From Eledone cirrhosa (Eukaryota): 64,000 nucleotides of DNA. Where the stretch lies: assembly GCA_964016885.1 (NCBI GenBank), contig OZ024740.1, positions 203,980,001 through 204,044,000 of the forward strand. Reading direction: 5' to 3'. The first letter of the stretch is position 1, and every line of letters begins with the position of its first letter. The notes under the pieces were generated by a model that saw only the letters and a list, made by a program, of their open reading frames with translations, was not told where the DNA came from and did no database searches. The translations under genes were made by a program, and so were the position numbers. This document shows positions 648 through 62,500 of the stretch, in pieces.

Positions 648-853
648 TAGGAACGAGCAGGACCCCGACGGCTGAGCTCAAGCCGTTTCGACGGCTAATT
701 CTGGACTAAATTTAGTCCAGAATTATATGTGTATATATAGAGGTATGTATTCGCTAGTGTGTATATATATATATATAATTCTGAACTAAATTTAGTCCAG
801 AATTAGCCGTCGAAACGGCTTGAGCTCAGCCGTCGGGGTCCTACTCGTTCCTA
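648..853. repeat. Short foldback (arms about 648-726 and 775-853), each arm carrying the 3' half of a type I hammerhead
   Basis: Arms are reverse complements. Right arm reads stem II 3' strand, GAAACGGCT-tgagctc-AGCCGTC (stem III plus GUC), then GGGGTCC. The CUGANGA half is absent. Flanked by (TA)n. Confidence 0.7.
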
Positions 854-1427
854 TTACCCACTCTACTACCCAAAGCATTGAGTACTTTGGTGCGTTATGG
901 TCCACCTGGTTCCTTACCACATTTTCTTCGTTATATATATATATATATATATATATATATATATATATATATATATATATATATATATATGTGTGTGTGT
1001 TAGGTGTAACAACAGTTGCAGACCCACTCAATGCTGTTACAAGATCCGTTTCGTTTGGGCTGTAGTGCACAAAGTGTAAATAGATTTAAAAGAATCGAAG
1101 TCAGTGTTGCAGCATAATGACCAACTTTATTGGCACATTACAATTGTTTCGATATCGATCAGCTCAAGATGACGAGGCCCGACTCTTTTTCGACATCTCG
1201 TCAGGTATGCGAGTTTATATGTGCAAAACACTTTGGCAGAAAATAGATTGATATAGCTCCAGTCAAGGATCGAAACTCTATCCCGGCGACTGAAAGTTTT
1301 GAACCTAGCCTCATGTCCTGCTGAAAACTTGGACATAGGCGTTAATACTAATTGCTCACTCACTAATGAAGAAATTTGAGAAGCACAACAATCTGACAAC
1401 GTCCAAACATACAGGGTATATTGATTT

Positions 1428-1575
1428 TTAATTTAGGCACAAGGCCAGCAAATTGGAGGAAAGGGTGAAGTTGATAAGTCAACCCTAGTATTTGACAGAT
1501 ACTTTATTTTATCGATCCCAAATGATGAAAAGCAAAGTTGACCTGTGCGGGATTTGAAATCAGAATGTAAACAGC
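1428..1575 (-). mobile_element. SINE fragment (family A)
   Basis: Reverse complement of the ttgcctttcatcc...tcgataaaataaagtacc...tgctggccttgtgcctaaa motif repeated many times in the window. Confidence 0.65.
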
Positions 1576-1586
1576 ACATACAGGGA

Positions 1587-1803
1587 ATATCTATAGTCTA
1601 CGCTGTGTAATAATCTGACTTGTCTACCGAGTTATGGTTACGTTTAGGGTTAGGGTTTGAGTTAGGGTTAGATTTTGTAGTTAAGGTAGACTGCACGCTG
1701 AACTGTAAATGACCAAGTAGATCGCACACTGAACTCTAAATAACCAGGTAGACCATACACTGAACTGTAAATGATCAGGTAGACCGTAAGCTATAGTGGT
1801 ACC
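1587..1803. repeat. Small repeat with a TTAGGG-like tract and three approximately 31-bp tandem units; possibly a non-autonomous Helentron-like element
   Basis: tttagggttagggtttgagttagggttag at about 1643-1671; units ggtagac..cactgaactgtaaatgacca at 1685-1785; short imperfect subterminal inverted repeat ctatagtctacg / cgtaagctatag. Confidence 0.35.
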
Positions 1804-2244
1804 TACCAAAAGGCTGTAGTTGCTCGCACTAATGGTGGAGTTTCTGCACACCTGCTTGACCGACTAGATATCTCTATCTTAACGATCGATAAGATCCCAA
1901 ACCTCATTCGTTTACCGAGTGGAGTGGAACTCGTCAAATCGGATCAAGGTAACAATGTTTCCATTGATATTTCTGTTGCTGATACTATCTACCGGTCGCA
2001 ACTCCTACTAGATAGAGCAGTCAAATCCCCGTCAAACACCATCATATATTCTTTAAATAAGGAAGGAAACAATGGATATTGAAGTCCTAGATTTCTAATA
2101 AAGATGGAATGGCTATGGCTAGAACGCCTTTGACCATAGGCCTTCTGGGTGAGTACTGGCCTATAGCTAAATAACAACAGCAACAGCTATAAATACCTTG
2201 GAAGGACATAAGCTTTTGATCATCGGTCTGTTGGATAAGTGAGA

Positions 2245-2460
2245 AGCTCAGTGGTCAAAGTTGTCGGCTCGTGAGTTCGATTTCTAGTGGCGAGTTGTAT
2301 CCTTAAGCAAGATACTTATTTCTTGTAATTTAAAGAACAAGCCTTGCTACATAACGTGCCACATTGAATCTTCATGAGAACTATGTTAAGGATGCACGAG
2401 CAAGTAGTCCCGTGGTTCAAACAACTGGGACACTCGTCGTCGGAACCGACGGAAGTCACA
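2245..2460 (+). mobile_element. tRNA-derived SINE (family B), decayed
   Basis: A-box-like agctcagtggt and B-box-like gagttcgattt; body resembles copies at 18475, 52662 and 56787. Confidence 0.55.
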
Positions 2461-59557: not shown

Positions 59558-59607
59558 GAACTACAGACACTAATGTTTCTGGATATCACCCTTCATCAGT
59601 GCAGTTC
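59558..59607 (-). ncRNA. Type I hammerhead ribozyme in an approximately 374-bp-period direct-repeat unit (59444-59867)
   Basis: Minus strand: gaactgca CTGATGA a gggt-gat-atcc a GAAAC attagt GTC tgtagttc; 8-bp stem I and a GUC site. Confidence 0.82.
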
Positions 59608-59901
59608 ACTGTTCACCTGCCAACTGTCAGAGTTAATGAAAATATATTATATTTTCTAAAATATACAGTGACTGATCAGTCATATCTGCATATTAGCAGA
59701 CTGGACAGTCATTTCCTGTATACGAGCGATTAATGGCCGGCTTTGCCATATTGAAATAATGTTTTTTAAATTATCCCTCTACATGGCTGAATACAATAAA
59801 TGTAATCTGAGTTTTATCGAATATTAATAATAATATCCGATTTGTTTGCAATTATGCAAGCAGCCTCATTATATATATATATATATATATATATATATAT
59901 A

Positions 59902-60932
59902 TACCAGATAGAAAAATGCGTACAGCAAAAAATAGTAATATTGTTGGAATATAAACCTTTAAAAATACAGGACAAGAAACTAAGATAAAACTTTAAAAGA
60001 ATAGGACAAGAAACTAAGATAAAACTTTAAAGAATTGGACAAGAAATAAAAAATTTTACAATAATATTAGTGGCAAAATTTTTATTGGTAAAAATTCGAG
60101 TTCCACATTCATAGGCTCTGGGTTCCACATTCAGAGGTCGTCGTCAGACCGGGGGGATCATTTGATCCTAGTTTGAACACCAATTGGGCCATAACCATAC
60201 CCCTATTTCATCATTCGGCGACACGCCTCATGTGTCATGCATAATGTGAATGGACCCATGGGCCCATGAGCACAGATCTTGAGCAGCAGCGGACGGTCTT
60301 GTCGTCCGCTCATCCTTGATCTTGACCAACCCGTCCATCTTCTCTTTGCATCTTGTCCTTGAGTTCAAGTCCGGCAGTCCAGATGAATGCGTGCCACAGC
60401 TTTCTGGTACAGGCAGGGGGAGCAGGAGGACTGGAGGGATGACGGGACAGAGGGAGGGAGGACCGGTGGTTGAGGGAGGTGCCGTAGTCGGTGGTCAGAG
60501 TCGACATCTTGTCCAGGTCGTTTTCTACATCTTCGTCTGGTGTTGCGGGACCAGAAGTGCATTCTTGGAGGAGACCTGCAGCTGCATCGGCCAATTCTTC
60601 TTGCAATGGTCATTCTAACGGAGCAAAACTGCTCAGACAACCAACCAACCCCAACCAGAACCAACCGCTCAGGGGCAACGCACAATGAGAGCATGACAAT
60701 TATTATGCACTAATCAAGAAGATACTGGGGCATAGCACAGGAAATGAATAAAAAAAATTTGCCACTAATATTATTGTAAAATTTTTTATTTCTTGTCCAA
60801 TTCTTTAAAGTTTTATCTTAGTTTCTTGTCCTATTCTTTTAAAGTTTTATTTTAGTTTCTTGTCCTGTATTTTTAAAGGTTTATATTCCAACAATATTAC
60901 TTTTTTTTGCTGTACGCATTTTTCTATCTGGT
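59902..60932. mobile_element. Foldback element with approximately 180-bp inverted arms and a GC-rich interior
   Basis: Arms about 59902-60083 and 60752-60932 nearly identical, each with internal approximately 34-bp tandem units; (TA)n on the left. Confidence 0.85.
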
Positions 60933-61411
60933 CTACTATTTTTTAAGGCAATGCAAGCAACAACTATCTAATAATTAAATGATCATAGTGAATTACTGAC
61001 AAGTGATTGACATTTTAAAGTTCTTTTGAGTATAATTGCAATCTAGTTGAGGCAACTGGCTTAATGACAAAGCTACGTCATTTCTGGATTACCTCCTCTA
61101 GCGTCACGCTTACTACTCATCACTTGAACACAAGATTTATCAGCAAACTTTGATTATAAACTTTTTCCCGCTGGACCAAATTTCTAGATTTTTAAGCCAA
61201 AAGATGCGTAATGATCTACTGTTCATGCTCATATAAGTTTTATCTCAGTTAAATAAAGTAGAGCCGCGCTGTACTGTCGTAAACAGACGATTGCCAACGA
61301 AAACACGACCACAACAATATTACTAAACGGACTAACGTCCGTTTAGGATATATATATATATATATATGTATGTATGTATGTATGTATGTATGTATGTATA
61401 TATATGTTTAT

Positions 61412-62126
61412 TAGTACTCTCTTGTGGGAGTGTTCTTATTACTATTTTAATATCGTCTACGTAACGAGAGTACATGACGAGCGCTATGGAATTCTTTTGA
61501 AGGAGTTCTCTGAGTCTCCTCTCCCACCATACCATAAATCATCGCCATCTGTGCTGACGCCAATGGCTATTTCCTCATTCTGGCTGTAGATCTTTTCATC
61601 AAATTTAAACATATGGCCCTTTAGGGTAGTTTTAATACTAGCCCCTATTGCATGTGCGACCATTTTTCTCACCTGATCATTGTTTTGGGGTGTCCGTATG
61701 GCTTTGGTCAATCCATTCCATCTTCCTATGGGAGTCTTTTTAGCCATTGAGGTTATGGTGGGGAGTTCTACCTCTCATAGGTCTACTGGGGCAGTCCCAT
61801 AGGAAGAAGGAATGGATGGACCAAAGCTATACGGACACCCCAAAACAATGATCAGGTGAGGAAAATGGTCGCACATGCAATAGGGGTTAGTATTAAAACT
61901 ACCCTAAAGGGCCCATATGTTTAAATTTAATGAAAAGATCTACACACAGAATGGGGGAGCAGCCATTGGCGTCAGCATAGCTGGCGATGTTGCCAATCTA
62001 TTTATGGTATGGTGGGAGAGGAGACTCAGAGAACTCCTTGAAGAGAACTCCATAGCGCTCGTCATGTACTCTCGTTATGCACACGATATTAATATAGTAA
62101 TAAGAACACCCCCACAAGAGAGTACT
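61412..62126. mobile_element. Head-to-head palindrome of Neptune-like PLE RT fragments
   Basis: Arms 61412-61733 (minus) and 61795-62126 (plus) encode GAAIGVSIAGDVANLFM...YSRY(V/A)(D/H)D; microsatellites outside both arms. Confidence 0.88.
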
Positions 62127-62149
62127 TATATATATATATATATATATAT

Positions 62150-62500
62150 TAATATGGAAAACGAAGAATCAGTGATACATTGGAACACAATTTATTACGT
62201 ACTACAATTGTTTCTCCGGCGAACAGCTCGAGGTGCGATCTGTTTGTGGATTGAACCTGACCCTGGATTCGCAAGTTCCTCAGATACGTCTAGTGATTTC
62301 GAAGCAAATACTTTCTGCTGGACTCCGAACTATCCAATTTCTATCATCTGCGATCATCCTGTTTGCGCGGCCCGTCGATTGGTTGCGAATCCAGAGTCAG
62401 GTTCGATCCACAAACAGATCGCACCTCGAGCCGGAGAAACAATTGTAGTACGTAATAAATGGTGTTCCGATGCATCACTGGTTCTTCGTTTTCCATATTA
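62150..62500. mobile_element. Small foldback containing a long-stem-II hammerhead (62197-62289, minus) and an inverted truncated copy
   Basis: Minus strand: acgtat CTGAGGA ...gcgaa..cag/ctgttcgc... GAAAC aatt GTA gtacgt; arms 62150-62274 and 62383-62500. Confidence 0.75.

What the first reader, a model, noticed from the sequence alone, without database searches (positions are those of the whole stretch)
648..62500. Truncated copies repeatedly begin inside the hammerhead (core/stem II), not at the cleavage site
Seen in sequence: partial copies at 51066, 62383, 17077, both arms of 648-853 and both arms of 35271-35675 start at or within the putative stem II and read intact across the NUH site into downstream sequence. 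Inference: the templates were uncleaved or re-ligated at that ribozyme, and cDNA ended near a transcript 5' end just upstream of the HHR or at the stable stem II, where it snapped back or switched template. This links ribozyme structure to the formation of genomic palindromes.
Basis: inference. Interest (0 to 1): 0.72.

Follow-up and report, generated by a model that had tools for sequence, protein, structure and literature searches.

The report
Transcript start inside a retrotransposon's hammerhead
The seven cut-short copies do begin inside self-cutting RNA motifs of Penelope-like jumping genes, but genome-wide only one of the five families piles up there, likely because its RNA starts in the middle of the ribozyme, which would explain tens of thousands of tiny mirror-image insertions.

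Summary
All seven cited arms start between the catalytic core and the 3' strand of stem II, but they belong to five Penelope-like element (PLE) families, and the general rule fails. In genome samples of four families (B, C, D, E) 30 of 254 starts fall there against 32.8 expected. B and D pile up upstream of the ribozyme instead. Family A (648-934, Hydra-type by motifs) is a real exception: 74 of 115 starts fall at -45..-34 from the cleavage site (7.0 expected), whichever of two priming sites was used. A 20-mer just downstream occurs 36,540 times, one just upstream 3,880 times. Long copies cross the same spot (16 of 17) and template jumps land on it, so it looks like an RNA 5' end (likely a transcription start) rather than a structural stall. 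Such an RNA would lack half the ribozyme, so no re-ligation is needed. Palindromes pair one short-tail with one long-tail arm (112 of 119) and are often non-nested, favouring two separately primed cDNAs over snap-back. No RNA reads were available to test the start. The scan noted twin priming before, in this genome and others.

The parts
647..711 (-). Family A (Hydra-type PLE) short-tail arm, -45..+20, ending in (TA)n
   Evidence: (98% to reference)
790..934 (+). Family A long-tail arm, -45..+100, ending in (TA)n; carries only the 3' half of the hammerhead (stem II 3' strand, GAAA, stem III, GUC)
697..804 (.). Centre of the family A palindrome: a 28-nt fold-back of the arm start present twice (697-724, 777-804) around a TA-rich filler; not the ribozyme's stem II
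   Evidence: sequence compared with full-length copies
9176..9219 (+). Complete minimal type I HHR of family B (core at 9181, predicted cleavage after 9215) at the 3' end of a long inverted PLE insertion (4772-9413)
16805..17070 (-). Family B arm, -65..+214, starting upstream of the HHR; 80% to reference
17078..17121 (+). 44-nt inverted family B fragment, -30..+14; starts in the core and ends at no element end
35163..35469 (-). Family E long-tail arm, -76..+246, starting in the 80-nt loop II
35475..35675 (+). Family E short-tail arm, -75..+138, starting in loop II
51066..51529 (+). Family C retrozyme-like insertion, 1.4 units of a 323-nt monomer; starts at -24 in stem II; whole HHR at about 51374-51419 with a changed NUH
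50987..51051 (-). Short inverted pieces of family C upstream of 51066 (-132..-91 at 50987-51028; bits of stem II/loop at about 51032-51051)
62145..62383 (-). Family D short-tail arm, -183..+58, with a whole HHR (core at 62283-62277)
62383..62575 (+). Family D long-tail arm, -72..+128, starting in the 5' strand of stem II

Best explanation
These are head-to-head insertions of five Penelope-like families whose 5' ends pile up at family-specific spots that are likely the 5' ends of their RNAs, and only in family A does that spot lie inside the hammerhead, likely because transcription starts there. Shown: each palindrome has one arm ending at the short-tail site and one at the long-tail site; the arms are often non-nested; A piles up at -45..-34, D at -119..-100, B at -110..-91, while C and E have no pile in the ribozyme. 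Inferred: the PLE protein nicks both strands of a (TA)n target and primes one cDNA from each strand at the two tail sites. Both cDNAs run to the RNA 5' end, or until blocked or trimmed, and are joined end to end, using a few bases of self-complementarity or added A's. In family A the RNA would begin at about A-41 (to -45) in loop II, only about 60 and 140 nt above the priming sites, so most products are 130-250-bp palindromes, like failed strong-stop DNAs. That RNA would lack the CUGA core and could not cleave itself. Long copies would come from read-through, multi-unit or circular RNAs that hold the site uncleaved or re-ligated.
For: Family A: 74 of 115 starts in 12 nt vs 7.0 expected, scan p=0.0005. 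The position is the same for short-tail (39 of 56) and long-tail arms (35 of 66), while only 1 long arm has the short arms' length. The upstream edge is sharp: 4 starts in -67..-46, 0 in -79..-68. Genome-wide 36,540 vs 3,880 hits either side of the edge; 28 of 33 head-to-head pairs in a second listing have <=30 nt between the -35 marks. A public run laid as contigs shows the same depth step and an opposite-strand joint at -40 (may be the assembly's own sample). Six loci show same-strand template jumps onto -44..-40, three onto A-41. 16 of 17 segments that run >900 nt into the ORF cross the spot, against 15 of 89 tail-primed arms (p=1e-9). 8 of 39 truncated arms carry more T's than the template's three, as expected from added A's at a template end. 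T(T/C)AGT at -43..-39 is kept across subfamilies while -67..-46 varies; likeness to an initiator is recalled. D. virilis Penelope starts from an internal promoter in its pLTR (PMC2377424, section 15). Anolis PLE protein nicks and extends both strands from two internal sites, and HHR cleavage is not needed (PMC11167929). 112 of 119 pairs are one short plus one long tail; the short-tail arm reaches further in 54 pairs vs 26, p=0.002.
Against: No RNA 5' end was seen: only contigs were served. The hot spot overlaps the 3' strand of a predicted weak apical helix extending stem II (about -3 kcal/mol in one subfamily, unfolded alone in the other), so structure is not excluded. No ORF-spanning copy starts at -45..-34 (0 of 11 with the 5' end in view; some are alignment breaks), although a read-through RNA from that start should give some. 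The window's own run of in-ribozyme starts is more than family rates predict (P=0.004). B has a small pile at -42..-34, at stem I and the core start (4 vs 0.8 in -40..-36, p=0.007, one of several bins). Five A palindromes are joined through stem III self-complementarity, so ribozyme structure does shape some joints. Samples are the first exact matches on contig C1, biased to young subfamilies. Arms of one palindrome share variants more than arms of different loci (6 vs 0.5), which fits one RNA but also snap-back or conversion.
Confidence: 0.6

Rival explanations
1. The -45..-41 end is a real RNA 5' end but made by processing (a host or element nuclease cutting loop II, or decay halted by bound PLE protein), not by transcription initiation.
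For: Explains the sharp edge, the jumps and the crossing by long copies equally well. Loop II is AU-rich and weakly paired.
Against: An initiator-like T(T/C)AGT is conserved at the edge (motif recalled). B and D have similar piles outside any ribozyme loop. Penelope has a pLTR-internal start (PMC2377424).
Confidence: 0.17
2. One reading: reverse transcriptase stalls in stem II of an uncleaved ribozyme and the cDNA snaps back to make the palindrome.
For: The hot spot overlaps a predicted apical extension of stem II. Small piles at -27..-24 and -20 in A and at -42..-34 in B. Local fold-backs at 697-724 and near 51040. Snap-back after cDNA synthesis is documented for R2 proteins (PMC11371274, passages).
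Against: No enrichment in four families (30 of 254 vs 32.8). The strongest helices are crossed by most arms. Long copies cross the spot 16 of 17 times. 54 of 107 pairs are non-nested and 12 share nothing, which copying one's own cDNA cannot give.
Confidence: 0.12
3. Long palindromes were inserted and later lost their centres by cruciform or microhomology deletion, leaving short arms.
For: Palindromes are unstable (general knowledge). Some centres hold fillers, duplications or joints in stem III.
Against: Same-strand junctions and single arms start at the same place. Long palindromes persist (L127/L128, L140; gaps of 0.4-5 kb). Deletion gives no reason for a fixed edge at -45 or for added T-runs.
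Confidence: 0.07
4. Self-priming on an antisense RNA makes a hairpin that is then integrated (proposed in PMC3846280).
For: Published explanation for head-to-head PLE palindromes; 27 of 107 pairs start within 3 nt of each other.
Against: Non-nested and non-overlapping arms, and the one-short-one-long tail rule in 112 of 119 pairs.
Confidence: 0.04

Closest known systems
Hydra-clade EN+ Penelope-like elements (Craig et al. 2021, PMC8557442; passages read)
   Same: Family A unit of 3,542 nt with a 717-aa RT + C-terminal GIY-YIG ORF, RWR and DKT motifs, CxCX5C linker, no CCHH, (TA)n target, HHR, partial tandems, inverted 5'-truncated copy and tail.
   Different: The passages read describe 5' truncation as variable. 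Here about 70% of arms start in a 12-nt spot inside the HHR, and the tail is 80 nt rather than 30-40.
Anolis PAc (Poseidon) in vitro system (Frangieh et al. 2024, PMC11167929; main text read)
   Same: Two internal RT start sites define the tail; both target strands are nicked and extended; uncleaved RNA is the template.
   Different: It does not address where cDNAs end or how the two are joined. In PAc the ORF starts in stem II; in family A the first in-frame ATG is at +191.
D. virilis Penelope internal promoter (Schostak et al. 2008, PMC2377424; passages and section 15 read)
   Same: Transcription starts inside the pLTR, upstream of the tail repeat, from an Inr/DPE-type internal promoter.
   Different: Its start is about 300 nt above the tail. 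For family A it is inferred 60-140 nt above, inside the ribozyme, and no RGACGTGY element is seen.
Minimal PLE hammerheads (Cervera and De la Pena 2014, PMC4209133; passages read)
   Same: Extra base between positions 9 and 10.1, U3-A8 core variant, palindromic loop III, pairs of motifs on opposite strands 100-700 bp apart.
   Different: Families A, D and E have loop II of about 30, 40 and 80 nt; one abundant A subfamily has a C3/A8 mismatch.
Metazoan non-LTR retrozymes (PMC7229834, passages; bioRxiv 10.64898/2026.07.22.740005, parts 1-2 of 5 read)
   Same: Family C is a non-coding 323-nt tandem unit with one type I HHR.
   Different: Its insertions show PLE-type two-tail, head-to-head geometry, and starts are not tied to the HHR.
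L1 twin priming and retroviral minus-strand strong-stop DNA (recalled; twin priming cited in the reference list of PMC11371274)
   Same: Two primers on one RNA give a head-to-head joint; priming near the RNA 5' end gives a short run-off cDNA.
   Different: Both primers use fixed internal sites with no poly(A); no tRNA primer; strand transfer is not shown.

Membership tests
EN+ Penelope-like element (family A) | Single ORF with RT and C-terminal GIY-YIG endonuclease | tested here: met
   717-aa ORF with YRDD and VIY..YIG motifs read; 2,031 homologues at E<=1e-20, the top one carrying PF01541 (PF01541 = GIY-YIG is recalled). Pfam scans of the protein itself gave nothing.
EN+ Penelope-like element (family A) | Partial tandems (pLTR), inverted 5' copy, optional tail, AT-rich target | tested here: met
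Hydra clade | RWK-like and DKT motifs, CxCX5C linker, CCHH absent, CxxC and CxH in EN, (TA)n target | tested here: met
   RWR, DKT, CNC-x5-C, a single C between GIY and YIG, CNLC, CKH in the translation, against the text
Hydra clade | Phylogenetic placement of the RT | not tested
   no tree with reference PLEs was built
Type I hammerhead ribozyme | Core C/U-UGA-N-G/A-A ... GAAA, NUH, stems I-III | tested here: met
   read in full copies of all five families; folded as a three-way junction for the U3-A8 subfamily of A. E has CCGA, the window's B copy has CUU, one A subfamily has C3/A8.
Type I hammerhead ribozyme | Match to Rfam hammerhead models | tested here: not met
   no hammerhead among 94 matches at E<=1 in the window
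Type I hammerhead ribozyme | Self-cleavage | not testable with these tools
   a minor class of A arms starts at +1, but that is also the base of stem III
Non-LTR retrozyme (family C) | Short non-coding tandem unit with one type I HHR | tested here: met
   323-nt monomer in tandem copies
Non-LTR retrozyme (family C) | Circular RNA | not tested
Pol II internal promoter as in Penelope | Mapped capped RNA start | not testable with these tools
   only contigs were served
Pol II internal promoter as in Penelope | Initiator and downstream element | tested here: inconclusive
   conserved T(T/C)AGT at the edge; no DPE-like motif at the expected spacing by eye; consensus motifs recalled
LTR-type strong stop with strand transfer | Transfer of the short cDNA to a terminal repeat | tested here: inconclusive
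   upstream core types and downstream tail types stay mostly linked; long copies cross the site freely

The most novel reading that the evidence does not exclude
Family A has split promoter and ribozyme like a retroviral LTR. Transcription starts in loop II and the next unit's hammerhead cuts the 3' end, so the RNA is terminally redundant by about 41 nt and that R region is the 3' half of the ribozyme. Priming at the tail makes strong-stop DNA that either jumps to the 3' copy, rebuilding a whole hammerhead and the pLTR, or fails and fuses head to head, leaving some 36,000 half-ribozyme arms. This would explain why tails lie downstream of the cleavage site in every insertion. The free crossing by long copies and the lack of subfamily chimeras weigh against it.
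Probability: 0.15. Interest if true: 0.85.

Novelty: new variant of a known kind. Interest (0 to 1): 0.5.

Why it matters
How PLEs finish insertion, why they form head-to-head copies and what their hammerheads do are open questions (PMC8557442, PMC11167929, PMC2377424). If 5' pile-ups mark RNA starts, PLE promoters can be mapped from genome sequence alone. Family A gives a base-precise prediction (a capped end at about A-41) and a natural case where the start site would switch the ribozyme off. The one-short-one-long tail rule constrains the integration mechanism.

Tried and rejected
Rfam scan: no hammerhead, only microsatellite-driven miRNA hits. Pfam and PDB searches with the family A protein: nothing useful. 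RNA evidence: one RNA-labelled run held 6% of the words and covered only the upstream 87 nt, so it says nothing on the start. First family C mapping dropped 22 nt of the monomer and was redone. The top-BLAST family C set (7 of 55 in core/stem II vs 3.6, p=0.07) is length-biased and was not used for the verdict. Family E's pile at +8 is an alignment break at an (ATT)n run, not a real hot spot. A length-from-primer explanation for A was rejected. Splice-acceptor origin was rejected because arms keep the AG and bases upstream. Chimera test for strand transfer was inconclusive. Rows dropped: duplicate loci of one insertion; arms without a canonical 3' end (2 of 124 A, 8 of 105 B, 3 of 50 D, 7 of 70 E); arms running off the reference or locus were censored; B, D and E rate tests use starts within -300..+130 only; L239 is a mis-call on inspection and three loci plus L231 repeat one array. 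Seven paper searches listed no paper mapping PLE 5' ends against the HHR; the library is partial and supplements were not read.
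Full report
Setting. The window lies in a 3.0-Gb animal genome (taxon not determined by any search) and is full of (TA)n runs and retroelements. The five cited sites belong to five different Penelope-like families, here A (648), B (17077), C (51066), D (62383) and E (35271). For each I took exact matches to a pattern near the element's 3' end, in genome order on contig C1, so that selection did not depend on the 5' end: A, (63 distinct loci covering the first 83 of 18,656 matches); B, (70 loci with duplicates, of 29,311 matches); C, (70 loci with duplicates, of 507); D, (30 of 471); E, (50 of 1,615). 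Positions are relative to the predicted cleavage site.

Observation. All seven arms start between the core and the 3' strand of stem II and cross the NUH intact: A -45 and -45, B -30, C -24, D -72, E -76 and -75. The hairpin before GAAAC at 697-724 is a fold-back, not stem II; the real stem II pairs about -79..-68 with -35..-24 around a 30-nt loop. Five other segments of the same families in the window start elsewhere. The window's run is more than family rates predict (4 of 9 vs 0.88, P=0.004), but it was picked after the fact. Rfam finds no hammerhead here; the motifs have the extra base after position 9 and the U3-A8 variant described in PMC4209133 (passages).

Genome test. Against a flat per-base stop rate, starts in core..stem II are 3 of 59 (4.0 expected) in B, 5 of 111 (7.2) in C, 12 of 43 (11.6) in D and 10 of 41 (10.0) in E; pooled p=0.71. 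D instead piles at -119..-100 (15 vs 1.9) and B at -110..-91 (12 vs 2.6), both upstream of the ribozyme, scan p=0.0005. B has a small second pile at -42..-34. Family A is different: 74 of 115 starts at -45..-34 (7.0 expected), the same for arms primed at +20 (39 of 56) and +100 (35 of 66), with a sharp upstream edge. Genome-wide counts fall 9.4-fold across the edge (36,540 vs 3,880). Contigs of a public run show the same step and an opposite-strand joint (possibly the assembly's own sample).

What family A is. Tandem arrays give a 3,542-nt unit with a 717-aa ORF from +191, a 1.2-kb 3' UTR and the HHR at the unit boundary. Its motifs match the Hydra clade as described in PMC8557442; no tree was built. 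Homologues are abundant; Pfam did not recognise it.

Why the edge is likely an RNA end. The strongest helices (stem III, about -6 to -8 kcal/mol, and the GC-rich part of stem II) are crossed by most arms; only 8 starts lie at -33..-24. Where the tail runs on into the element, 16 segments cross -45..-34 and 5 stop there, and only one of those 5 is longer than 900 nt, against 74 of 89 tail-primed arms stopping. A barrier inherent in the sequence should stop both. Six loci show same-strand jumps landing on -44..-40, three on A-41. 8 of 39 truncated arms have 4-18 T's where the template has 3. T(T/C)AGT is kept across subfamilies, resembling a recalled initiator. D. virilis Penelope starts inside its pLTR (PMC2377424). 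Against: a weak apical helix is predicted over -57..-37; no ORF-spanning copy starts at the edge (0 of 11); no RNA reads exist here. A nuclease-made end is not excluded.

How the palindromes form. 112 of 119 head-to-head pairs in A, B, D and E join one short-tail and one long-tail arm. Of 107 resolvable pairs, the short-tail arm reaches further upstream in 54, the long-tail arm in 26, and 27 are within 3 nt; 12 share no sequence. Snap-back, or antisense self-priming as proposed in PMC3846280, gives nested arms only. Two cDNAs primed from the two nicked strands at the two tail sites fit, and match the in vitro behaviour of the Anolis protein (PMC11167929). The bias towards the short-tail arm (p=0.002) suggests one shared RNA on which the downstream cDNA is sometimes blocked; this is inference. 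Ribozyme structure has a secondary role: five A palindromes are joined through stem III or its palindromic loop, and a few arms start at +1, which is both the cleavage site and the base of stem III.

Known and new. Inverted truncated copies, tails and pLTR hammerheads are published. Twin priming was proposed by earlier follow-ups of this scan in this genome and others (unchecked AI notes, not support), one of them also reading mini-palindromes as copies of the RNA's start. Seven searches of the held library listed no paper that maps PLE 5' ends against the ribozyme; supplements were not read. What this adds is the five-family test, the rejection of a general stem II rule, and a family whose probable start site bisects its ribozyme.

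Verdict. Observation partly confirmed, interpretation partly supported, new variant of a known kind, interest 0.5.

Noticed in passing
window 23061-33225: Large inverted PLE insertion (arms 97.7% over 977 nt) with an open 844-aa RT/GIY-YIG frame at 27202-29736 between direct repeats, each with a hammerhead core (26996, 31949); a sixth family.
   Followed up: no
window 61390-62149: 760-bp palindrome (85%) of a PLE ORF piece 69-76% like family B, abutting the family D insertion.
   Followed up: no
window 70-442, 15508-15710, 59900-60935: Further inverted repeats (81%, 82%, 98%) next to TA runs; family not identified.
   Followed up: no
window 11100-14570 and 38900-49700: Several nested LINE copies with endonuclease and RT frames, one of 789 aa.
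   Followed up: no
L171-L200 versus L219, L232: Family A subfamilies differ in the core: U3-A8 (paired) versus C3/A8 (mismatched, likely impaired). The tail type linked to the mismatched core is the commonest among truncated arms fetched, but that sample was selected on it.
   Followed up: partly
family B about -95..-87; family E about -282..-273: A YY1-like motif (recalled) lies at B's 5' hot spot and, reversed, beside a weak E pile at -282..-261 (8 starts); fits start-site positioning.
   Followed up: partly
L065, L075, L078, L083: 5 of 111 family C arms are 320-325 nt, almost exactly one monomer, as if a circle was copied once; C also has an excess of starts at +39..+66 (21 vs 11.3, post hoc).
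   Followed up: partly
L205:1384-2044: Two successive -44..+213 segments with identical joints before a -44..+100 arm: repeated jumping on, or circling of, one short RNA.
   Followed up: partly
L290, L292, L295, L307: The (ATT)n run just after family E's cleavage site often holds an insertion of another repeat.
   Followed up: no
families A, D, E: Unusually long loop II (about 30, 40 and 80 nt) in PLE hammerheads that Rfam misses.
   Followed up: partly
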